64,000 bases of DNA. It comes from Escherichia phage vB_EcoM-Pr103Blw. The translations under genes were made by a program, and so were the position numbers. A model generated the notes under the pieces. It saw nothing but the letters and a program-made list of their open reading frames with translations. It had not been told where the DNA came from and made no database searches. Shown here piece after piece: positions 3,634 to 64,000 of the stretch; the stretch's first letter is position 1; each line of letters starts with the position of its first letter. The stretch lies in the sequence record MW481326.1; one strand, written 5' to 3'.

Positions 3634-9017
<5,384 letters not shown>

Positions 9018-52632: not shown

Positions 52633-52656
52633 AGGCTGCTTCGGCGGCCTTTTTTA
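52633..52656 (+). terminator. rho-independent terminator
   Basis: GGCTGC-ttcg-GCGGCC followed by TTTTTTATTT. Confidence 0.55.
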
Positions 52657-52685
52657 TTTGTATTTTGTGCAGAGTGCTGTATAAT
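52657..52685 (+). promoter_or_regulatory. promoter-like element with TGTGCAG motif
   Basis: TTTGTA-17 nt-TATAAT with adjacent TG; contains TTGTGCAGAG resembling the 57.1-57.3 kb repeat unit. Confidence 0.35.
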
Positions 52686-52716
52686 TGTTGTCACGATAAA
52701 CTAAACAGGAGAACCA

Positions 52717-56271: not shown

Positions 56272-57057
56272 ATGGGTATTGTAAAAATCATCAATGGTGA
56301 TATCTTTGCTGCATTTGATAAAGGTAAGTTTGACATCATTGGTCATGGTTGTAACTGCATGAACCTAATGGGTGCAGGTATCGCTGACAAGATTTCTAAA
56401 CTTTACCCAAAAGCATATGAGACCGATACAGAAGTTTATCTATATGCAGGTGGTATAGGACACAAACCCTGTGAAAATTTACTGGGTAATTTCTCTGTAG
56501 CACGTTTAAAACAAGGTCGTATAGCCAACCTTTACACTCAGCTTAAGACTGGTAAAGATGCCCGATACAGTGCTTTAGAGTTATCTTTGAAACAGCTTAA
56601 CAGATACTGTGAAGTTAATCAGTTGAAGAAAGTTGGTTTACCTATGATTGGCGCAGGTATCGGTGGGTTGGACCCTCAAGCCGTCACAGTTATCATCAAT
56701 CAGGTGATGAAGAGTGTAGATGTTTATCTATATGTCTATGAAGGAGAGATGTACCACAAGTTACGCTCAGGTTGGAAGAACTACTGTGAACCAGAATACT
56801 TTGCAGGTGTAGTTGTGTTCACGGATAATGCAGTTACCCTCTTCAGACGAAGAAAAGGTAAGATACATCAAAGTAACCCTCCGGTTGAGAAGATGTCTCT
56901 AAGTAACGCTCTAGTTACCCACCTGTCGAAGAGCAATCACAGGATAGCCGTAACATTTGGCAGTGATGCAGATACATATATTTATGCAAGAACTGATGAG
57001 GATATTGAGACGGTCTTCTCTTCACCGGAAGTTACCTTCTTAGACGCAAAGAACTAA
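56272..57057 (+). CDS. macro-domain protein (ADP-ribose binding/processing) with C-terminal extension
   Basis: N-terminus NGDIFAAFDKGKFDIIGHGCNCMNLMGAGIA and later LPMIGAGIGGL match macro-domain Gly-rich ADP-ribose-binding loops. Confidence 0.6.
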   Translation: MGIVKIINGDIFAAFDKGKFDIIGHGCNCMNLMGAGIADKISKLYPKAYETDTEVYLYAGGIGHKPCENLLGNFSVARLKQGRIANLYTQLKTGKDARYSALELSLKQLNRYCEVNQLKKVGLPMIGAGIGGLDPQAVTVIINQVMKSVDVYLYVYEGEMYHKLRSGWKNYCEPEYFAGVVVFTDNAVTLFRRRKGKIHQSNPPVEKMSLSNALVTHLSKSNHRIAVTFGSDADTYIYARTDEDIETVFSSPEVTFLDAKN

Positions 57058-57131
57058 GAAACTCTGTATAATATTCACAATAGACTAAGCCTTTCTTATC
57101 TGGTAAATTTTTCAGGTAAGGAGGGCTTTTT

Positions 57132-57320
57132 CATTTCAGGATTGTGCAGGTATATATCTATAGAGAAATCTGTAGAGAGAATTTTGAACTCCAAAGAGAA
57201 AATTCATTTTCAAACTGTGCAGGTAATCTCCAAAGAGCTTTTTCATTTTCAAAACGTGCAGACCCCGCTCAGGTCGGGCAAGAAAAATCATTTTAGAATT
57301 GTGCAGGTAGGTTTTTATAG
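57132..57320. repeat. array of four direct repeats (consensus TTCATTTTCAAAAcTGTGCAGGTA)
   Basis: Copies near 57132, 57205, 57243, 57288; non-coding (track ORFs on both strands here only translate the repeat). Confidence 0.6.
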
Positions 57321-57330
57321 AGAGCCAGAC

Positions 57331-57365
57331 CAACCCCTCTCCCCCTCTTACTCCCCCTCTCCCCA
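57331..57365 (-). other. G-quadruplex-capable tract on - strand (C-rich on + strand)
   Basis: + strand CCCCTCTCCCCCTCTTACTCCCCCTCTCCCC gives four G-runs of >=4 with short loops on - strand; unusual in AT-rich genome. Confidence 0.45.
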
Positions 57366-57484
57366 AAAGTCAAGAGAAAAATTTGTAGCGGATTGAAAAA
57401 TAATTCTTGATTTGTGTTCTGTTTTGTGGTAGTCGTGTGCGCACGTTTCATTACAGTTTTCCAAAAATATTTTTAAAATTTTTC

Positions 57485-57578
57485 TTGACTCTTTGAACGG
57501 GGTTATCTAGTATTTGCATCAACGGGGAGGGAATGACCTTTCCCACTAAGTAAAGTCCTTAAATTAGGAGATTCAAAA
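57485..57578 (+). promoter_or_regulatory. early promoter plus conserved leader cassette, copy 1
   Basis: TTGACT-17 nt-TAGTAT, then leader TCAACGGGGAGGGAATGACCTTTCCCACTAAGTAAAGTCCTTAAATTAGGAGATTCAAAA-ATG. Confidence 0.65.
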
Positions 57579-57959
57579 ATGGCATATCGTGCACCTAAAT
57601 TCATCAACAAAGACAACTTTCGCAACGCACTGGAGAAGTCACTTGATGAGAATTTTAAAGGTAACGTTATTGTTGTTCACTCGTTCAATTTTAAGTATGA
57701 TATCAACGGGAATAAAATCAACCATTACACGGCAACCATGTTAGATGGCACTCTTTCAAGTGAAAAAACAATTCTACATGCACTTGCTGGGCGTGGAAAA
57801 AACCTGATAAGGTGCGATAAGAGACGTTATCAGGGTGGCGCATATGGTTACGATGACGCTATTTATCATCTTGAAAATATGGGCTATCAAGTAGAAAAAG
57901 CTGGAGTATCACAAATCATCGGGAGCGATGGTTATGTAACAATCTTCAAAATTAACTGA
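57579..57959 (+). CDS. early protein, unknown function
   Basis: 126 aa; starts right after conserved leader/RBS. Confidence 0.6.
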   Translation: MAYRAPKFINKDNFRNALEKSLDENFKGNVIVVHSFNFKYDINGNKINHYTATMLDGTLSSEKTILHALAGRGKNLIRCDKRRYQGGAYGYDDAIYHLENMGYQVEKAGVSQIIGSDGYVTIFKIN

Positions 57960-58048
57960 TAAAGTACTTTACAAGGGGCTTATAGTTCGATAAAGTAAGC
58001 CCCAGATAAAGAGCTTTACCACTCAATCCTAAATTGGAGAACTAAAAA
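57960..58048 (+). promoter_or_regulatory. intercistronic palindrome-hairpin element, copy 1
   Basis: Palindrome TAAAGTACTTTA, hairpin GGGGCTTA...TAAGCCCC, then AGATAAAGAGCTTTACCACTCAATCCTAAATTGGAGA...ATG. Confidence 0.55.
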
Positions 58049-58339
58049 ATGGCTATTATCAAAAACGTTGTAATTACTGCAAAGACTCGTGATGACGCTC
58101 GCGTTATGGCTAAAAAGTTAGGCGGGAAAGTGGTTGACAACGGAAAACAATCTGCTGTAAGGTGGGGCGTGAAGGCTGATAAGCAGTTGAGGTTAAAAAA
58201 TTCACCGATAAACCTTTTTACATGTGTAAACACTATCGGGAAGACAAATGTATACACGAAAAAGGCATACATTAGACGCGTAGCATTAACATCCCCCATT
58301 CGTACAATGAGAAGTTATGCAAAGCTGAAAATTAACTGA
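58049..58339 (+). CDS. early protein, unknown function (basic)
   Basis: 96 aa; follows element copy 1; ends ...KLKIN like preceding gene (...IFKIN). Confidence 0.6.
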   Translation: MAIIKNVVITAKTRDDARVMAKKLGGKVVDNGKQSAVRWGVKADKQLRLKNSPINLFTCVNTIGKTNVYTKKAYIRRVALTSPIRTMRSYAKLKIN

Positions 58340-58427
58340 TAAAGTACTTTACAGGGGGCTTAAAAGTTGATATCTTAAGCCCCAGATAAAGAGCTTTACC
58401 ACTAAATCCTAAACTGGAGATTCAAAA
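58340..58427 (+). promoter_or_regulatory. intercistronic palindrome-hairpin element, copy 2
   Basis: TAAAGTACTTTA + GGGGGCTTAA...TTAAGCCCC + conserved RBS leader. Confidence 0.55.
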
Positions 58428-58724
58428 ATGAAACTATCAAATAAAGTCCGTGAAAATCTAAGCAAGTTACTTAATAAAATTGATTTCATTGAAACATCAA
58501 GGAATAGTCATGATGTTATGGAATGGTTACACGGAAAAATCAAAGGCCGTCGTGTAGTGATTTGCTTATGGAATAGTTGCAGGGAATATAAAAAACCTGT
58601 ATTGCAAGTCAATATCTATGATGATACTTTTAAAAGCCCTGTAAAGTCTAAAAGCGATTTATTAGAATCCTATGAGATAACTGTAAATGGCAAAGTATCA
58701 CGTAAAGAGGAAACACCATGCTAA
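58428..58724 (+). CDS. early protein, unknown function
   Basis: 98 aa. Confidence 0.6.
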   Translation: MKLSNKVRENLSKLLNKIDFIETSRNSHDVMEWLHGKIKGRRVVICLWNSCREYKKPVLQVNIYDDTFKSPVKSKSDLLESYEITVNGKVSRKEETPC

Positions 58725-59050
58725 TGACTGGTATCACTGCAATCATTGCCATTTTCGCGCTATATAAGGCATATAAAGCCTATAATCTAGCAAATAAGGC
58801 AATCACACAGCAGGTTAGCAATAACCTTGTAGAGAGCTTTCTAGGGCGTTTAAGTGATGAGCAAATAAAGCGGCTAGAGATGAGCTTCAGATATAAAGCG
58901 AAAACCTATCAAATAAGTGACATCTTCAAAGATGATTTTCAGTTAGTTGATGATTATAATTCTCTGATAAATGCTTTAAATATCAGTGACTTAAAAGACT
59001 ACTACGCTGTAATTGTTCAAGAATTGAGCAAACGAAAACAAAACTGTTGA
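58718..59050 (+). CDS. early membrane-anchored protein, unknown function
   Basis: 110 aa; N-terminal hydrophobic segment (LMTGITAIIAIFALY). Confidence 0.5.
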   Translation: MLMTGITAIIAIFALYKAYKAYNLANKAITQQVSNNLVESFLGRLSDEQIKRLEMSFRYKAKTYQISDIFKDDFQLVDDYNSLINALNISDLKDYYAVIVQELSKRKQNC

Positions 59051-59138
59051 CACTGGTTTTTAGATAGATTAAATTACACATCAACGGGGAGGGAATGACC
59101 TTCCCCACTAAATAAAGTCCTAAACTGGAGATTCTAAA
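59047..59138 (+). promoter_or_regulatory. early promoter plus conserved leader cassette, copy 2
   Basis: TTGACA-17 nt-TAAATT then leader with GGGGAGGGAATGACCTTCCCC hairpin and AGGAGA... wait-free RBS GGAGATTCTAAA-ATG. Confidence 0.65.
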
Positions 59139-59411
59139 ATGTATACTACTAACAACGGTCGCACTTTAAATGTCACACTACGTCACTATGTAGATGGTGT
59201 CATGCACTTTGAAGACTTACAAGCTGAACAACATATCTTAGATTGGCAAGTCGCAGGACTCCAAAAAACTGCTACGGGATACGGTAAAAAAATTCCAACC
59301 AGTTGGAAAGTACACTACGAAGGACGTTTGCGCAGAATTTATCAGGATGTGCAAAGCAATAGTGCATCGAGTTACATTATAGTAAAAGGTAAAAAACTGC
59401 ATTTAGTGTAA
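59139..59411 (+). CDS. early protein, unknown function
   Basis: 90 aa. Confidence 0.6.
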   Translation: MYTTNNGRTLNVTLRHYVDGVMHFEDLQAEQHILDWQVAGLQKTATGYGKKIPTSWKVHYEGRLRRIYQDVQSNSASSYIIVKGKKLHLV

Positions 59412-59495
59412 AGTACTTTACAGGGGGTTATCAAGCTGATAAGATAACCCCAGATAAAGAGCTTTACCACTCAATCCTAAATTGGAGATTCTAAA
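59409..59495 (+). promoter_or_regulatory. intercistronic palindrome-hairpin element, copy 3
   Basis: TAAAGTACTTTA overlapping stop codon; hairpin GGGGTTATC...GATAACCCC (stem co-varies relative to other copies). Confidence 0.55.
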
Positions 59496-59900
59496 ATGGC
59501 TATTAATAACCGTGAATTATCAATCTTAAAAGCACGTTTGACCGTCAACCGGATTAATGTTCTGACATCATCAGCGCCTGATGAGACATTGCACAACATT
59601 ATCGGAAAGATTCAAAGTGTTATCTTAGACGTTGAAAACGTAAAAAACTCATTGGCTGACGTTGCAGCAGGTATCACGCTAGACGGTGCGCAATATGAAA
59701 TGATTGATATGTTAGGCAAATCAAAGGTTATGAATAAAGAGTTAGACCTAAAAATGTTTCGATTTGCCGTGAAAGTATGGCTATCTGTCGAGTATGATGC
59801 TAATTTTGCAATCGCTGATTTCTTCGCCACTTGGTTACAACGTAATTTGACAAATCACGATTTTCGTGGCATCTGCGATGCAATTTATGCAGAACTCTAA
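59496..59900 (+). CDS. early protein, unknown function
   Basis: 134 aa. Confidence 0.6.
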   Translation: MAINNRELSILKARLTVNRINVLTSSAPDETLHNIIGKIQSVILDVENVKNSLADVAAGITLDGAQYEMIDMLGKSKVMNKELDLKMFRFAVKVWLSVEYDANFAIADFFATWLQRNLTNHDFRGICDAIYAEL

Positions 59901-59909
59901 AAAATTTTG

Positions 59910-60003
59910 TTGACACTGGTTTTTAGATAGATTAAATTACACATCAACGGGGAGGGAATGACCTTCCCCACTAAATAAAGTCCTTAAACTAGGAGATTCA
60001 AAA
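59910..60003 (+). promoter_or_regulatory. early promoter plus conserved leader cassette, copy 3
   Basis: About 95 bp nearly identical to copy 2 (TTGACACTGGTTTTTAGATAGATTAAATTACACATCAACGGGG...). Confidence 0.65.
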
Positions 60004-60207
60004 ATGGCTATTATTAACGGTTTAACCATTGAAACTACACACATCAAAGATATCAAAGTTGGTGATATAGTCCTTTCCCACGGCGTAGAAAAAACTGTCA
60101 CTGCAAAGGATATCAAAGAGGATTCTTTCATGGGTAGGACTCTCTTCGGTGATTCTTATTGCTTAGGTTATCTTGCAGTTTTAAAAGTTGTCAAAATTAA
60201 CAAATAA
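60004..60207 (+). CDS. early protein, unknown function
   Basis: 67 aa. Confidence 0.55.
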   Translation: MAIINGLTIETTHIKDIKVGDIVLSHGVEKTVTAKDIKEDSFMGRTLFGDSYCLGYLAVLKVVKINK

Positions 60208-60291
60208 AGTACTTTACAAGGGGCTTATAAGTCTGTAAAGTAAGCCCCAGATAAAGAGCTTTACACAATCCTTAAACTAGGAGATTCAAAA
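60205..60291 (+). promoter_or_regulatory. intercistronic palindrome-hairpin element, copy 4
   Basis: TAAAGTACTTTA overlapping stop; hairpin GGGGCTTAT...TAAGCCCC; conserved RBS leader. Confidence 0.55.
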
Positions 60292-60834
60292 ATGAAATGC
60301 TATCACGGAACTACTCAAGAAAATTTCCTCAACCTGATTAATAACGGTGATAAACCATCAGGCGCATGGAATTGTTCGGATATGGACGGCAATTTTTACG
60401 TGTATCCAGAAAATAAAATCTATGGCGACGATGAGGAAGAAATAGCATCAGAAGGTATCCAACAAGCTCTAGGAAATGCCACTATCACCGCAGCTTTCCA
60501 GATGAAAACCCAAAATATTGTTATCTTAGAACTCGATATTCCAGAGGATGAGCTGAATGATGATTATTCTTGTGATAATATGTCGAGTGTGGCAAGTTTT
60601 ACAGAGTACTTTGATGTAAATTGGATTAAAAAGGTCTATACAACAGAGTTTAACGCTATGTATTCACCTTTTTGTCTTCCTTCATTGGATAACCCAAATT
60701 TAAACTATCTTGATGAGTCTCTGGAGCTTCTTGCTAAAAGTGTTCAACAGTCGGACAGTATTCAGGTTTTTTGTGACATCATGGATACACTGACAGGGAA
60801 CATTGCAGAAGAGGATTTAAAGAGCTTTTTCTAA
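60292..60834 (+). CDS. early protein, unknown function (acidic)
   Basis: 180 aa. Confidence 0.6.
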   Translation: MKCYHGTTQENFLNLINNGDKPSGAWNCSDMDGNFYVYPENKIYGDDEEEIASEGIQQALGNATITAAFQMKTQNIVILELDIPEDELNDDYSCDNMSSVASFTEYFDVNWIKKVYTTEFNAMYSPFCLPSLDNPNLNYLDESLELLAKSVQQSDSIQVFCDIMDTLTGNIAEEDLKSFF

Positions 60835-60866
60835 AAACCTATGCAATCACCTTATAAACACTAATC

Positions 60867-60887
60867 AGCCCCTTGTAGGGGCTTTTA
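60867..60887 (+). terminator. terminator-like hairpin
   Basis: AGCCCC-ttgta-GGGGCT followed by TTTTA. Confidence 0.45.
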
Positions 60888-60900
60888 GGGGGCTTAAATC

Positions 60901-61134
60901 ATGCTTACAACCATTTATCTCATCCTTTCCATTTGTAACGGCCATTCATGCGATTTTAAAGGGCTTGAGGAGTTCACAGGAAGTAAAGAAAATGCCATTC
61001 AAGTTTGTCAGATAGCAAGGCAAGACTATCCCGCCAGTGATGACATACAATGCTACTTTAAGACAGAAGATGAAGAAGGCATTTATTTTGATAGTGTTGA
61101 CGGTCAATATGAAATTATCATTGAAAAAGACTAG
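60901..61134 (+). CDS. early protein, unknown function
   Basis: 77 aa; GGGGGC SD. Confidence 0.5.
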   Translation: MLTTIYLILSICNGHSCDFKGLEEFTGSKENAIQVCQIARQDYPASDDIQCYFKTEDEEGIYFDSVDGQYEIIIEKD

Positions 61135-61225
61135 ACAAGCCTGATAAAAGCTTGTAGAGTGTCAATCAACGGGGAGGGAATAACCTTCCCCACTAAGTAA
61201 AGTCCTTAAACTAGGAGATTCTAAA
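61132..61225 (+). promoter_or_regulatory. early promoter plus conserved leader cassette, copy 4
   Basis: TAGACA-17 nt-TAGAGT overlapping upstream stop, then leader with GGGGAGGGAATAACCTTCCCC hairpin. Confidence 0.55.
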
Positions 61226-61567
61226 ATGGCTTATGTAACTGTAATTACCGATAAAGAGAATTCATCTTGGTCAACTCAGGTTAGTGATAAGATGTCACCT
61301 ATGCAGTGTCTAAAATACTTTGAGCAGTGGAACAAAGGCGAGGATGTAAGCCCCTTTCAGGTAATGCAAATCATCCATACAGATAACGAAGGGAATAAAA
61401 CGACACTGAATAGTGAGTACTATGCAAGCCGTTTTGAAACGAGAAGTAAAACAATGAAGCTTTTACGTGAATCCGGCTATTCTCACATTGCCGCGCTAAT
61501 ATGGGATGACCTGCTGAAAAGCCAGCGTATCAGCTATGTAAAACCTGAAAAAATATTCATCAGTTAA
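61226..61567 (+). CDS. early protein, unknown function
   Basis: 113 aa. Confidence 0.6.
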   Translation: MAYVTVITDKENSSWSTQVSDKMSPMQCLKYFEQWNKGEDVSPFQVMQIIHTDNEGNKTTLNSEYYASRFETRSKTMKLLRESGYSHIAALIWDDLLKSQRISYVKPEKIFIS

Positions 61568-61599
61568 TCAATAACTTATAAAAAACTTTAAAAAATTAC

Positions 61600-61628
61600 T
61601 TGACGATACCCCTTGACAATAGTACATT
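61600..61628 (+). promoter_or_regulatory. sigma70-like promoter
   Basis: TTGACG-17 nt-TACATT in 220-bp gap. Confidence 0.4.
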
Positions 61629-61696
61629 TGTTCGAGGGGGTTTATCTAAAAGGGATTCACTTAAAAGATTCTTTATAGATAAGCTTAAAAAATTGC

Positions 61697-61789
61697 TTGC
61701 AATCAACTATCAAAACAAGTAAATTACTAATCAACGGGGAGGCGATAACCTTCCCCACTAAATAAAGTCCTTAAACTAGGAGATTCAAA
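61697..61789 (+). promoter_or_regulatory. early promoter plus conserved leader cassette, copy 5
   Basis: TTGCAA-17 nt-TAAATT then leader (hairpin GGGGAGGCGATAACCTTCCCC). Confidence 0.6.
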
Positions 61790-62320
61790 ATGAACAAGTT
61801 CAAAGCTATCAACTATATTCGTTCAAATGCTGTAATGTCTAAGCCTGTTAAAGATACCTACGAATTTCGCTGCAACGGTGTACACTTCGCAACCATCACT
61901 AAATCAGAAAACGGGGCTTATTACGTTCATCGTCGTAATGTTTCGACCGTTGTAGTCTCTCACTTTATGCAAGCTGTAGCAGAATTATTACCGTTATTCT
62001 TAGAGATTTACTTAGATGAGTGTAAAAACGTTCGCAACCATGTTAAAAACCTTTTAAATGGTTATAAGATGGCTTATGAACGTTCTATCAAGAATCTTAA
62101 CAAGTTCTATAAAGCCCCTGAAAATACTGTATCAATAGCTTATGATGTAAGCGGTGAAATGGCCAACCTCTCTAATGTAGAACAAATTAGCCTTTATGAT
62201 TTACGTCCTAGTGGCTACTCTAAGACTCTCGGTGAAGGTTTATCCTTCAATATCAAGAACTTAGAAAAAACTTTAAAAGATATTGAAAAAGATATTGACG
62301 AGACAATCAAAAGTCTGTAA
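61790..62320 (+). CDS. early protein, unknown function
   Basis: 176 aa. Confidence 0.6.
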   Translation: MNKFKAINYIRSNAVMSKPVKDTYEFRCNGVHFATITKSENGAYYVHRRNVSTVVVSHFMQAVAELLPLFLEIYLDECKNVRNHVKNLLNGYKMAYERSIKNLNKFYKAPENTVSIAYDVSGEMANLSNVEQISLYDLRPSGYSKTLGEGLSFNIKNLEKTLKDIEKDIDETIKSL

Positions 62321-62382
62321 ATTGTCAATCAACGGGGGATAACCTCCCCCACTAAACAAAATCCTAAACTGGAGTTATCAAG
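62295..62382 (+). promoter_or_regulatory. early promoter plus conserved leader cassette, copy 6
   Basis: TTGACG-17 nt-TAAATT (-10 overlaps stop codon); shortened hairpin GGGGGATAACCTCCCCC. Confidence 0.6.
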
Positions 62383-62646
62383 ATGGAAAACGTAGAATTA
62401 ACCACACTTTTACAAATTGCAACCGACAAAGAAGATGTAGCATTATTCCACCGTATCGAAAGTGATTTGTTCAATGGTGAAATCATTAAAGAATCTTACG
62501 AAGTTGTCGGATTCAAAGATGGTAAAGCATTTGGCTTTTTTGACCTCGACAAAAGCAAAGCGGTTACAATGTACGATGTTCTATCTTGTGAAATTCTGAC
62601 AAAATACAACGAAAAAAGGCTTGCAACCTACGCCAATATGCAGTAA
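62383..62646 (+). CDS. early protein, unknown function
   Basis: 87 aa. Confidence 0.6.
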   Translation: MENVELTTLLQIATDKEDVALFHRIESDLFNGEIIKESYEVVGFKDGKAFGFFDLDKSKAVTMYDVLSCEILTKYNEKRLATYANMQ

Positions 62647-62713
62647 ATTACTAATCAACGGGGAGGGAATGACCTTCCCACTAAACAAAGTCCTAAACTG
62701 GAGAATCTAAATT
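62621..62713 (+). promoter_or_regulatory. early promoter plus conserved leader cassette, copy 7
   Basis: TTGCAA-17 nt-TAAATT then leader with GGGGAGGGAATGACCTTCCC hairpin. Confidence 0.6.
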
Positions 62714-62962
62714 ATGTCAACTATCCGCGTAACTGTTAATGCTTATGGCTGCCACAAACTTGATGCAAAATTCGATATCGGTGGAACAGATAACACCTTT
62801 GACCTTATCAAAATGCTGATTCAGCAGGTGATACCAGATTATAACCCTACTGATGACTTCTGGAAAGATGCCGTAAAAGAAGCCATAAACGAGGAATCTC
62901 ACTACCATTATTGGGGTGACTTGATTGTCTCTCTATACTACAGCAAACAAGGCTACAACTAA
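62714..62962 (+). CDS. early protein, unknown function
   Basis: 82 aa. Confidence 0.6.
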   Translation: MSTIRVTVNAYGCHKLDAKFDIGGTDNTFDLIKMLIQQVIPDYNPTDDFWKDAVKEAINEESHYHYWGDLIVSLYYSKQGYN

Positions 62963-63000
62963 TCGACGCAACGGGGCTAAATAGCCCCAGATACCTTTAC

Positions 63001-63024
63001 AGCCCCTTAAATGGGGCTTTTTTA
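63001..63024 (+). terminator. rho-independent terminator closing the early gene array
   Basis: AGCCCC-ttaaat-GGGGCT followed by TTTTTT; preceded by a second hairpin GGGGCT-aaat-AGCCCC at 62974-62988. Confidence 0.6.
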
Positions 63025-63039
63025 CGTCTATCGAATCCT

Positions 63040-64000
63040 TATACAATCCCTTTCCTTTCTAGAATCTTATCAGACCTTAAAAAGCAATAACTCTATAGTC
63101 TACTCTATAACCTCTTATCAAATCAACTTAAATATAAGCCCATAACCCGAAAGGGAAGGGCAACCACTAAAATGCTCTATAAAGCTCTATAACAGCCTTA
63201 TCAACCTAACTTAAGCAATCATATTAACCCACTCTAAAAAGCCCTTTATAGAGCTTCCTAGAGCCTTAAAAGAATCTTATAAGGGTACAAGCTTATAAGC
63301 TGGCTAGTATCTTGTGAATACCTAAACAACCCCTTGATAGTCACTAAAAAGTATGTTATAGGGGCTATAGAGTTACTTCAAAGTTACGTAAAAAGAGCTA
63401 TAAAGTTACGTAAATGCTAGCCCCCTTAACATTTTCTTAACAATTTCTTAACAAACCCTACATAGTTATGCTTGTTAGAGACTTGTTAGCCCCTTGTTAA
63501 ATCTCTGTTAAGACCACGTAAAAGCCTTGTAAGAGTCTTTGACATATCCTTAAAAGCCTCTGTAAAGCCCTATAAAGAGCTATCCATACAGTTGAGGGGT
63601 AAATACTAGGGAGAGCCTTAAAAGAGCTTACAAGGGGCTGTATAGGGCTTTTAAGAGGTATGTTTAAGAGTTCACTAAGAAAGGAAAGGGAACGATAAGA
63701 AAAGAGATAGTGACCATGTTAATAGCTTGTTAAAAAGATTAAACACTTGTTAGAAACTTGTTAATTATCTTAATAAAATAACTCTTTAAAATTAACTTGT
63801 TAGCTCTTATTAGTCATCTGTTAAGACTCTGTAAAGACTATTCAGCACTTGTTAGAAAACTGTTACATCCTTGTTAGTTCTGTTAAGAGACTGTTAAGAC
63901 CTTTGAAGAGTTGTTAAGAGCTTGTGAGAACTGTTAAGAGATTGTTAAGGATATTTTAAAATTTTGCAAAGTACTTGTAAGGGAGTTGTTAAGGGCTACC
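63040..64000. repeat. non-coding region dense in short degenerate repeats (CTATARAG and yTGTTARr families)
   Basis: No ORF of 60 aa or more; more than 20 copies of TGTTAAG/TGTTAGA-like heptamers, from about 63840 spaced every 10-12 bp; also TTACGTAA x2 and CTATAAAG/CTATAGAG copies. Confidence 0.6.

What the first reader, a model, noticed from the sequence alone, without database searches (positions are those of the whole stretch)
57060..57480. Regulatory hub between late and early blocks: direct-repeat array, G4-capable tract and GTGCGCAC palindrome
This ~420-bp non-coding gap holds four direct repeats of about 24 bp (TTCATTTTCAAAAcTGTGCAGGTA) at irregular 38-73 bp spacing, then a pyrimidine tract whose complement has four runs of four or more G (G-quadruplex-capable, striking in an AT-rich genome), then a GT-rich stretch with the palindrome GTGCGCAC, ending at the first strong early promoter. 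A related TTGTGCAGAG motif lies in the promoter region upstream of the transglycosylase gene near 52665. Iteron-like repeats next to an unusual structural element suggest a replication origin or a binding array for a phage regulator; the two ORF-track entries here (57136..57366 minus, 57142..57396 plus) just translate the repeats.
Basis: seen in the sequence. Interest (0 to 1): 0.6.

Follow-up and report, generated by a model that had tools for sequence, protein, structure and literature searches.

The report
Conserved four-repeat DNA array, Felix O1 phages
A non-coding gap in a Felix O1-type phage genome holds four same-direction copies of a ~22-38 bp motif that occurs nowhere else in the genome, is kept across at least five phage lineages, and is most likely a docking array for a DNA-binding protein (a candidate replication origin or early-gene switch), whereas the G-quadruplex tract and the palindrome beside it are not conserved.

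Summary
The window is a Felixounavirus (97% identical to wV8). The four direct repeats are real. The core TCATTT-N7-GTGCA(GGTA) starts at 57131, 57204, 57243 and 57288, all on the + strand. A weight matrix built from relatives scores them at 32-39 bits; the next best site in about 90 kb scores 10 bits. The array follows the terminator of the macro-domain phosphatase gene and lies about 195 bp upstream of the first of at least 10 repeated early promoters. It is about 6.9 kb from the physical genome end, because the 608-bp terminal repeat maps to 63428 onward. The same array, same orientation and same synteny occur in Felixouna-, Susp-, Moogle- and Kolesnikvirus and in a metagenomic relative. 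The cores are as constrained as codon positions 1+2 (pi 0.028, against 0.131 at 4-fold sites). The array is not coding, because the motif is read in different frames in different genera. It shows no RNA covariation, has no Rfam match, and is not the terminal repeat. The G4-capable tract is the only one in 64 kb, but about half of the Felixounaviruses carry an unrelated equal-length segment in its place. GTGCGCAC is at chance level. My best reading is an iteron-like protein-binding array. I favour an origin, with an early-transcription switch as close rival; neither is proven.

The parts
57087..57128 (+). Rho-independent terminator of the macro-domain phosphatase gene (17-bp stem plus T-run). 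Its T-tract is the 5' part of repeat copy 1.
   Evidence: Annotated as a terminator in wV8 and KhF2. The 3' half (GGTAAGGAGGGCTTTTT) is invariant, while the 5' half is rebuilt in Mooglevirus. pi is 0.021.
57131..57152 (+). Repeat copy 1: TCATTTCAGGATTGTGCAGGTA
   Evidence: PWM score 36.5 bits.
57189..57225 (+). Repeat copy 2 with its upstream part: CTCCAAAGAG-AAAAT-TCATTTTCAAACTGTGCAGGTA
   Evidence: PWM score 39.3 bits. pi is 0.000 for 57189-57203 and 0.021 for the core.
57228..57264 (+). Repeat copy 3 with its upstream part: CTCCAAAGAG-CTTTT-TCATTTTCAAAACGTGCAGACC
   Evidence: PWM score 32.5 bits.
57283..57309 (+). Repeat copy 4: AAAAA-TCATTTTAGAATTGTGCAGGTA
   Evidence: PWM score 37.4 bits.
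57310..57364 (.). Replaceable spacer cassette. In this phage it is C-rich on the + strand, and its complement (57334-57364) is G4-capable. The sequence is variable among relatives but the length is fixed.
   Evidence: It holds the only G4 motif in the window. About half of the Felixounaviruses carry an unrelated sequence of identical length here; measured from the end of the copy-4 core to AAAAGTCAA, both versions are 59 nt.
57365..57445 (.). Conserved block of unknown role (AAAAGTCAAGAGAAAAATTTGTAGCGGATTGAAAAATAATTCTTGATT...). It holds an inverted copy of the promoter's UP/-35 module and the non-conserved palindrome GTGCGCAC (57437-57444).
   Evidence: Inverted repeat I2. Conserved in Felixouna-, Susp- and Mooglevirus. 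The palindrome is present only in the window, wV8 and L014.
57446..57513 (+). AT-rich UP-like tract (85% A+T) and sigma70-type promoter TTGACT-17-TAGTAT. This is the first early promoter module.
   Evidence: wV8 annotates it as repeat DR_6.
57579..57959 (+). First small early gene (126 aa, no known family). It marks the start of the terminal early-gene block.
52654..52686 (+). Solitary weak relative of the motif (TTTTTTATTTGTATTTTGTGCAGAG), directly after the rIIB terminator and overlapping the sigma70-like promoter TTGTAT-16-TATAAT.
   Evidence: PWM score 10.2 bits, the fifth best in the genome. Sequence shown. Conserved in Suspvirus and UAB_Phi87 but absent after rIIB in Erwinia phage MM7.

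Best explanation
The four repeats are a DNA-level array of oriented binding sites for one sequence-specific DNA-binding protein, probably encoded by the phage. It assembles a nucleoprotein complex at the inner border of the terminal early-gene block. The function I commit to is an iteron-type replication origin. An early phage protein would occupy the four sites. The complex would sit at a fixed distance from a conserved block and from the very A+T-rich, strongly transcribed first early promoter, which would help to open the DNA. This resembles transcriptional activation of lambda ori, or T4 oriE with its iterons and the neighbouring early rep genes (both recalled from knowledge, not tested here).

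Shown: the array exists; it is unique in the genome; it is non-coding; it has no structured-RNA signal; it is under purifying selection; and it keeps its copy number, order, orientation and geometry across genera.

Inferred: that a protein binds it, and that the protein is phage-encoded.

Guessed: that the outcome is replication initiation.
For: - Uniqueness and strength: the four sites score 32-39 bits against 10 bits or less elsewhere in about 90 kb, on both strands. There are no regex hits in the other 25.6 kb of wV8.
- Selection: pi of the 18-nt cores is 0.028. The comparison values are 0.131 at 4-fold sites and 0.024 at codon positions 1+2 of the adjacent gene, and 0.089 in the spacers between repeats.
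- Deep conservation with synteny: four copies in the same orientation lie downstream of the phosphatase gene in Felixouna-, Susp-, Moogle- and Kolesnikvirus, although the rest of the gap cannot be aligned with the Erwinia phages. A metagenomic relative with about 48% aa identity has five copies.
- Lineage-wide motif switch: all copies end in GTGCAGGTA in the coliphage genera and in GTGCATAG in Kolesnikvirus and in L062. A Kolesnikvirus deposited with a Salmonella host (SB18) keeps the Erwinia-type motif. This points to a phage-specific rather than a host factor.
- Geometry: copy 4 lies 197-199 bp from the -35 in Felixounavirus and 192-194 bp in Susp/Mooglevirus. The 59-nt spacer keeps its length even where its sequence is replaced.
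- In the Erwinia phages the four copies are one-mismatch DnaA boxes (CTATGCACA / TTATGCACG), all in one orientation.
- No host counterpart: there is no match in 5,426 E. coli genomes, and no enterobacterial array among 185,579 species genomes.
- Prior from established knowledge: clustered, asymmetric ~20-bp direct repeats at a single locus are typically origin iterons (lambda, P1, P4, SPP1, T4 oriE).
Against: - No origin has been mapped in any Ounavirinae, and no initiator gene was found. The neighbouring early proteins match no Pfam family.
- The spacing (37-45 and 73-77 bp) is wider and less regular than the ~22 bp of classical iterons.
- The A+T-rich tract is 158 bp away, and it is the UP element of a promoter type that recurs at other early genes.
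- The replication genes lie far away in the genome.
- In the coliphage lineages the copies are not DnaA-box-like.
- Viable relatives have only three copies (Si3-like, L048/L078) or a mutated copy 2 (L013, L038).
- GC skew shows no origin-like switch at 57 kb, although skew here follows the direction of transcription.
Confidence: 0.32

Rival explanations
1. The array is a transcription-control or boundary element. A phage early protein (or a host nucleoid protein) binds the four sites, which overlap the terminator's T-tract and lie at a fixed distance upstream of the first early promoter. It would then do one of two things. It could insulate the terminal early block from the upstream rII-phosphatase operon. 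Or it could drive the early-to-middle switch, by shutting off or silencing the early block, or by promoting read-through or activation at middle times. Phi29 p4/p6 and spreading ParB-type silencers are mechanistic analogies recalled from knowledge.
For: - Copy 1 always overlaps the T-tract of the terminator, even where the upstream gene and the hairpin differ.
- The distance to the first early promoter is conserved through a non-homologous replacement of the spacer.
- The array precedes the first of at least 10 early promoter modules in every lineage.
- In Felix O1, RT-PCR over 'ORF14' (8042-8254, which covers copies 2-4 plus the C tract) was positive and is listed among ORFs that peak at 25 min. 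The flanking ORF13 and ORF16 are listed at 5 min (PMC3185647).
Against: - The motif is absent from all other early promoters and from the rest of the genome, so it cannot be a general early operator.
- The repeats do not look like sigma70 promoters.
- The RT-PCR was not strand-specific and was only semi-quantitative.
- No regulator has been identified.
Confidence: 0.25
2. The array is a DNA-entry boundary signal, analogous to the T5 injection stop signal. It marks the inner edge of the roughly 8-9% of the genome that carries the host-takeover genes, and it pauses or anchors the entering DNA until early proteins are made.
For: - The experimentally determined 608-bp terminal repeat of UAB_Phi87 (PMC4837284) maps to window 63428-64000+. 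The array is therefore about 6.9 kb (about 7.9%) from the physical end that carries the early genes.
- The MM7 record carries an exact 444-bp terminal repeat, and its array is 7.85 kb (9.3%) from that end, with the same gene architecture.
- The T5 iss is likewise a conserved untranslated repeat region at 7.9%, better conserved than the neighbouring ORFs, with DnaA-like boxes (bioRxiv 10.1101/866236).
- The Erwinia-type copies are DnaA-box-like.
Against: - Two-step DNA transfer has never been reported for Felix O1-like phages.
- The T5 iss lies inside a ~10-kb terminal repeat and is built of large inverted repeats, which are absent here.
- The coliphage copies are not DnaA-box-like.
- It is unknown which end enters first.
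Confidence: 0.07
3. The repeats act at the RNA level. They would be repeated protein- or sRNA-binding motifs in a read-through transcript, or in an antisense transcript started at the inverted TTGACT module at 57373-57368.
For: - RNA over the region is detectable in Felix O1.
- An inverted copy of the UP/-35 module faces the array. In the allele-B relatives it is followed at 17 bp by TAGCCT (my reading).
Against: - There is no Rfam match.
- RNAalifold finds no covariation on either strand beyond the terminator; the covariation terms are -0.92 and -0.94 kcal/mol.
- The array lies directly behind a strong terminator.
- In this phage the putative antisense -10 (TAAGAG) lacks the key -7 T, and the promoter scan finds nothing there.
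- A5 and T5 alternate upstream of the cores, which would change any pairing.
Confidence: 0.08
4. The region encodes a small protein (wV8 gp13, Felix O1 ORF14, or the minus-strand ORFs called in 3HA14, mistaenkt, SB18 and UAB_Phi87).
For: - ORFs of 50-100 aa are open on both strands.
- Several annotators called genes here.
- Felix O1 ORF14 was RT-PCR positive.
Against: - Annotators disagree on strand and coordinates, and RefSeq Felix O1 has no CDS here.
- The spacing differs by amounts that are not multiples of 3 between genera: 73/39/45, 75/41/45 and 37/37/39.
- The conserved motif falls in phases [2,1,1,1], [1,1,2,2] and [0,2,1,1] of the longest open frame in different genera.
- Conservation therefore tracks the DNA motif, not any frame.
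Confidence: 0.02
5. The array is a functionless relic of tandem duplication of the terminator tail and its downstream sequence.
For: - Copy 1 shares its T-tract with the terminator.
- A similar T-tract-plus-TTGTGCAG arrangement follows the rIIB terminator.
Against: - Core diversity is 4.7-fold lower than at 4-fold degenerate sites.
- Copy number, order and orientation are kept across genera whose flanking protein is only 48-69% identical.
Confidence: 0.03

Closest known systems
Iteron-type phage and plasmid replication origins (lambda ori, P1 oriR, P4 ori/crr, SPP1 oriL, T4 oriE with repEA/repEB)
   Same: Both have several asymmetric ~20-bp direct repeats in one orientation, at a single locus, in non-coding DNA next to early genes and an A+T-rich transcribed region. 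In both, the motif changes lineage by lineage, as expected if it co-evolves with its own binding protein.
   Different: The spacing here is 37-45 bp (plus one interval of 73-77 bp), not about 22 bp. No initiator gene has been recognised, no origin activity has been shown, and relatives with three copies are viable.
T5 injection stop signal region (Repeat Region 3 of the first-step-transfer DNA)
   Same: Both are conserved untranslated repeat regions at about 8% from the genome end that carries the host-takeover genes. Both are better conserved than the adjacent small ORFs. DnaA-box-like elements occur in T5 and in the Erwinia-phage version of this array.
   Different: The T5 element lies inside a ~10-kb terminal repeat and is built of large inverted repeats, palindromes and paired DnaA boxes. 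Here there are four simple direct repeats outside a 0.4-0.6-kb terminal repeat, and two-step entry is unknown for this phage group.
Phi29 p4/p6 binding-site array controlling the early/late promoter switch
   Same: Both have four sites for a small phage protein between transcription units, forming a nucleoprotein complex with fixed geometry relative to promoters.
   Different: Phi29 sites are inverted repeats placed between divergent promoters. Here the repeats are direct, lie 200-350 bp upstream of a single promoter, and directly follow a terminator. There is no sequence or protein homology.
Plasmid centromere repeat arrays (for example F sopC, 43-bp units)
   Same: Both have a unit length of about 38-43 bp, tandem direct units, and a single locus per replicon.
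   Different: Each sopC unit contains an inverted repeat and there are 12 units. A virulent phage has no known need for partition, and no ParB-like gene was seen near the array.

Membership tests
Iteron-type replication origin | Three or more direct repeats of about 17-22 bp in one orientation at a single locus | tested here: met
   There are four copies of a 22-nt core, all on the + strand and unique in the genome.
Iteron-type replication origin | Regular spacing of about two helical turns between iterons | tested here: not met
   Start-to-start spacing is 73/39/45 bp here, 75/41/45 bp in Mooglevirus and 37/37/39 bp in Kolesnikvirus.
Iteron-type replication origin | An adjacent A+T-rich DNA-unwinding element | tested here: inconclusive
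   An 85% A+T 40-mer lies at 57446-57485, 158 bp from copy 4. It is the UP element of a promoter type that is repeated in the early block.
Iteron-type replication origin | A cognate initiator gene next to or overlapping the iterons | tested here: inconclusive
   The flanking proteins match no Pfam family apart from the Macro domain of the upstream gene. The one early protein conserved as far as the Erwinia phages (59139-59411) gave an unusable model, pLDDT 55.6.
Iteron-type replication origin | Replication initiates at the site | not testable with these tools
   This needs marker-frequency analysis or 2D gels.
T5-type injection stop signal | A cis element at the inner edge of the first-entering ~8% of the genome | tested here: inconclusive
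   The position fits: 6.9 kb (7.9%) from the end carrying the early genes, and 7.85 kb in MM7. The order of DNA entry is unknown.
T5-type injection stop signal | Large inverted repeats with paired DnaA boxes inside a long terminal repeat | tested here: not met
   The array consists only of direct repeats, lies outside the 608-bp terminal repeat, and has no DnaA box within one mismatch in its copies in this phage.
G-quadruplex regulatory element | Four G-runs of at least 3 with loops of 1-7 | tested here: met
   57334-57364 on the minus strand. It is the only such motif in the window.
G-quadruplex regulatory element | Conservation of G4 potential in relatives | tested here: not met
   G4 potential is absent from the 12 allele-B Felixounaviruses, from L014 (lost by a point change) and from MM7. 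It is present in allele A, Suspvirus and Mooglevirus.
Protein-coding gene (wV8 gp13 / Felix O1 ORF14) | A reading frame conserved across relatives | tested here: not met
   The motif phase differs between genera, and the indels are not multiples of 3.
Structured non-coding RNA | A match to a known family, or covariation supporting a fold | tested here: not met
   Rfam gives nothing relevant at E<=1. RNAalifold finds no support beyond the terminator on either strand.
Direct terminal repeat / packaging site | Coincides with the experimentally determined genome ends | tested here: not met
   The UAB_Phi87 DTR sequence maps to 63428-64000+, not to 57.1-57.5 kb.
Sigma70 promoter cluster | -35 and -10 hexamers with 16-18 bp spacing in each repeat | tested here: not met
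   The promoter scan finds no site within 57129-57330.
Host DnaA-box cluster | TTWTNCACA within one mismatch in each copy | tested here: not met
   None of the four copies qualifies in this phage. All four do in Erwinia phage MM7.

The most novel reading that the evidence does not exclude
The array is a DNA-entry or compartment-boundary signal in a myovirus. It would be a T5-like stop or anchor that delimits the terminal ~7-8 kb host-takeover segment, which enters and is expressed first, and it would be read by a phage-lineage-specific protein. If so, staged genome delivery would extend beyond the T5 group, and it would offer a simple four-site element for dissecting how such signals work.
Probability: 0.07. 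Interest if true: 0.85.

Novelty: new variant of a known kind. Interest (0 to 1): 0.5.

Why it matters
Felix O1-type phages are classical typing phages and are used for therapy and biocontrol. Even so, their replication origin, their temporal gene control and their mode of DNA entry are all unknown; the Felix O1 genome paper says explicitly that temporal regulation is not understood. This array is the most constrained non-coding element found in the region. It is unique in the genome and shared by the whole subfamily, which makes it a concrete handle that is easy to mutate. Deleting it, titrating it from a plasmid, or using it as bait should identify a dedicated DNA-binding protein and show which of these processes it controls. 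The result also corrects database annotation, because the ORFs called over the array are spurious. It also shows that the eye-catching G4 tract and the palindrome are not the conserved parts.

Tried and rejected
1. Terminal repeat or pac site. The KhF1 record and several metagenomic contigs end inside this gap. However, the two KhF1 copies are only 89.7% identical, which points to a mixed assembly. One contig end is a Nextera adapter and another contig is chimeric. The published UAB_Phi87 DTR maps 6.3 kb downstream. Rejected.
2. Known RNA family. Rfam at E<=1 gives nothing relevant.
3. Conserved RNA structure. No covariation on either strand.
4. Coding. Rejected by frame analysis.
5. Sigma70 promoters in the repeats. 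None found.
6. Host-factor sites. In this phage the copies are not DnaA boxes, and the gap has no IHF consensus match. My by-eye comparisons with the CRP, Fis, OmpR, MarA, ArgR, Fur, LexA, Ter, dif and Chi consensus sequences (recalled from memory) gave only partial, inconsistent resemblances.
7. Host or other-phage homologues of the array. There is no E. coli genome match. Pattern scans of IMG/VR, 185,579 species genomes and JGI metagenomes returned only Ounavirinae-like contigs plus unrelated coding or satellite tandem repeats.
8. Covariation test using the solitary site after rIIB. The site is absent in the Erwinia phage MM7, so the test could not be run.
9. Candidate binding protein. The only early gene conserved as far as the Erwinia phages (90 aa) has no Pfam or PDB match, and its AlphaFold model is too poor for a fold search.
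10. Literature. I found nothing on this array in the papers I could search and read: the Felix O1, wV8 and UAB_Phi87 genome papers and the Bas63 PhageMaP study. The Bas63 supplement is not held, so insertion fitness in this gap could not be read. No Felixounavirus transcription-start-site study turned up.
11. More distant macro-domain loci (L039, L040) have no intergenic array.

Full report
**Identity and setting.** The window is a Felixounavirus. The stretch 56900-57700 is 97.3% identical to phage wV8 (positions 7482-8279) and matches 229 phage records. The gap studied, 57058-57578, lies between a 261-aa Macro-domain 'phosphatase' gene (T4 Tk.4-like; 56272-57057) and the first of a series of small genes of unknown function (57579 onward). 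Upstream on the same strand are rIIA, rIIB, a weak SLT-like or 'endoribonuclease' gene, polynucleotide kinase and the spanins. The array therefore sits inside the long early/middle transcription unit described for Felix O1 (genes 97-131/1-23; PMC3185647). It does not sit between a late and an early block.

**Anatomy, 5' to 3' on the + strand.**
- A strong intrinsic terminator lies at 57087-57128 (17-bp stem).
- Four direct repeats follow, with cores starting at 57131, 57204, 57243 and 57288. Copy 1 shares its T-tract with the terminator.
- The real unit is about 38 nt: CTCCAAAGAG, an A5 or T5 tract, TCATTTT, 5-6 variable bases, then YGTGCAGGTA.
- A 59-nt spacer comes next. In this phage it is C-rich, and its complement (57334-57364) has four runs of four or more G.
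- A conserved block of about 80 nt follows. It includes an inverted copy of the promoter's UP/-35 module.
- An 85% A+T tract and the promoter TTGACT-17-TAGTAT lie at 57485-57513.
- This promoter is the first of at least 10 repeated promoter/5'UTR modules spread over 57474-62714.

**Is the array more than chance?** Yes.
- The exact 10-mer TGTGCAGGTA occurs three times in 64 kb, all in the array.
- A weight matrix built only from relatives scores the four copies at 32.5-39.3 bits. The best other site on either strand of the window, plus the remaining 25.6 kb of the wV8 genome, scores 10.2 bits.
It follows the rIIB terminator, overlaps a sigma70-like promoter, and is conserved in Suspvirus and UAB_Phi87. 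It is absent from the Erwinia phage MM7. I treat it as a weak relative, not part of the array.

**Conservation.**
- The same four-copy, same-orientation array lies downstream of the phosphatase gene in Felix O1 itself. It is also found in 27 IMG/VR relatives, in Suspvirus, in Mooglevirus and in Erwinia Kolesnikviruses. In the Erwinia phages the repeats are the only part of the gap that still aligns.
- Start-to-start spacing is 73/39/45 bp in Felixouna- and Suspvirus, 75/41/45 bp in Mooglevirus and 37/37/39 bp in Kolesnikvirus.
- A metagenomic relative whose phosphatase is about 48% identical has five copies.
- Si3-like phages have three copies and a different upstream gene.
- Within Felixounavirus, nucleotide diversity of the cores is 0.028. 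It is 0.131 at 4-fold degenerate sites and 0.024 at codon positions 1+2 of the adjacent gene, and 0.089 in the spacers between repeats.
- All copies of a lineage share the same 3' end: GTGCAGGTA in the coliphage genera, GTGCATAG in Kolesnikvirus and the metagenomic relative. A Kolesnikvirus deposited with a Salmonella host keeps the Erwinia-type motif. This suggests a phage-specific reader rather than a host one.

**The other parts of the 'hub'.**
- The G4-capable tract is the only canonical G4 motif in the window.
- However, 12 of the 27 Felixounavirus-group relatives carry an unrelated sequence in its place, and MM7 has only three C-runs.
- Both alleles are exactly 59 nt long. The distance from copy 4 to the -35 is held at 197-199 bp in Felixounavirus and 192-194 bp in Susp/Mooglevirus. 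So the length of this spacer matters, but its sequence and its G4 potential do not.
- GTGCGCAC occurs once. About one 8-bp palindrome is expected per 420 bp, and most relatives read GTGCGCCC.

**What the array is not.**
- It is not the terminal repeat. The 608-bp DTR of UAB_Phi87, determined by Bal31 digestion and run-off sequencing (PMC4837284), maps to window 63428-64000+.
- Record and contig ends that fall in the gap are assembly effects.
- It is not coding. Annotators disagree on strand, and RefSeq Felix O1 has no CDS here. The motif falls in different phases of the longest open frame in different genera.
- It is not a known or structured RNA.
- The repeats are not sigma70 promoters.
- They are not DnaA or IHF sites in this phage, although the Erwinia-phage copies are one-mismatch DnaA boxes.
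- There is no counterpart in E. coli genomes or in other bacterial genomes.

**Genome architecture.**
- The array lies about 6.9 kb (about 7.9% of the genome) from the physical end that carries the early genes.
- The Erwinia phage MM7 record has an exact 444-bp terminal repeat and the same layout: phosphatase, array, 16 small + strand genes, about 1 kb of non-coding DNA rich in TGTTAAGA repeats, then the end. Its array is 7.85 kb from that end.
- The array therefore marks the inner border of a terminal block of host-takeover-type genes across genera.

**Experimental hint from the literature.** In Felix O1, 'ORF14' (8042-8254) covers copies 2-4 and the C tract. It was RT-PCR positive and is listed with ORFs peaking at 25 min, while ORF13 and ORF16 are listed at 5 min. 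The assay was not strand-specific.

**Interpretation.**
- The data support a DNA-level array of oriented binding sites for a dedicated, probably phage-encoded protein. This array is geometrically coupled to the conserved block and to the first early promoter.
- What the complex does is not shown.
- I favour an iteron-type origin (0.32). The reason is that single-locus clusters of asymmetric ~20-bp direct repeats in phages are usually origins. The weaknesses of that reading are the spacing, the missing initiator gene and the distance to the A+T-rich tract.
- A transcription boundary or early-to-middle switch is nearly as likely (0.25). It is favoured by the overlap with the terminator, the fixed distance to the promoter and the RT-PCR timing.
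- A T5-like DNA-entry boundary is the most novel reading that is not excluded (0.07).
- RNA-level, coding and relic explanations are unlikely.

**Dead ends.** The one early protein conserved as far as the Erwinia phages (59139-59411; 81-93% identical across three genera) has no family or PDB match, and its model is unusable. The Bas63 knockout study gives no readable data for this gap.

Noticed in passing
window 63020-64000: About 1 kb of non-coding DNA ends the early block. [quoted passage not shown] The region is packed with TGTTAAGA / CTTAACA motifs: 12 TGTTAA in 981 bp, against 60 in the whole window.
   Followed up: partly
window 57159, 57316 and 62937-63366: The 7-mer TATAGAG occurs 12 times on both strands of the 64-kb window. 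Two of these lie at the same offset (28 nt) after repeat copies 1 and 4, and seven lie in the ~430-bp non-coding stretch just before the terminal repeat. It may be a second shared motif linking the two non-coding regions.
   Followed up: partly
window 57474-62714: The early block carries two families of repeated promoter/5'UTR modules: one with 6-7 copies of 51-89 nt that contain a conserved hairpin (GGGGAGGGAATGACCTTCCCC), and one with 4 copies of 101 nt. Nearly every small gene has its own copy. These correspond to DR_1 to DR_9 in the wV8 record.
   Followed up: partly
window 59139-59411: This 90-aa early protein of unknown fold is 81-93% identical across Felixouna-, Moogle- and Suspvirus, which is much more conserved than the neighbouring phosphatase (64-69%). 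It is the only early-block gene still recognisable in the Erwinia phages (50% identity). It has no Pfam or PDB match, and the AlphaFold model reached only pLDDT 55.6.
   Followed up: partly
window 57310-57368 versus L016, L018, L020, L024-L026, L028, L029, L032, L038: There are two unrelated alleles of exactly equal length (59 nt) between repeat copy 4 and AAAAGTCAA. One is C-rich and G4-capable. The other begins GGTGGGTGCAGGTGGGG, which carries an extra GTGCAGGT half-motif.
   Followed up: yes
L002 2680-3160 (KhF2); also ekra, LF82P1/P3, SeKF_63: Some relatives carry an insertion of about 480 bp with two small ORFs and an extra promoter module between the first early promoter and the homologue of gene 57579. 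This is mosaic gain or loss of early genes.
   Followed up: partly
L005/L006 (KhF1 record ends); L022, L021, L027 (IMG/VR contigs): The KhF1 GenBank record starts and ends with two copies of this gap that are 89.7% identical, which suggests an assembly of mixed strains. Contig L022 ends in the C tract with a Nextera adapter sequence, L021 ends at the same base, and L027 becomes an unrelated GC-rich sequence after copy 3.
   Followed up: partly
L062 (IMGVR_UViG_3300045988_063805), reverse strand about 5330-5760: An uncultured 88-kb relative has five motif copies (AAAWTCATTTTAAAAACGTGCATAGG). About 11 TTAACA motifs follow them directly, resembling the terminal-repeat motif of Felix O1-type phages. 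There is no close cultured relative in the phage collection.
   Followed up: partly
window 57087-57128 versus L034-L037: The 3' half of the terminator stem is invariant across genera, while the 5' half has been replaced in Mooglevirus by a different sequence that still pairs with it. This suggests the 3' half is constrained as part of repeat unit 1.
   Followed up: no
L048, L078 (Si3-like phages): These phages have a different gene upstream of the array and only three motif copies. The sequence between copies 1 and 3 contains an inverted repeat (ATCTGTAGGGGTCTGCACAGAT) in place of copy 2.
   Followed up: no
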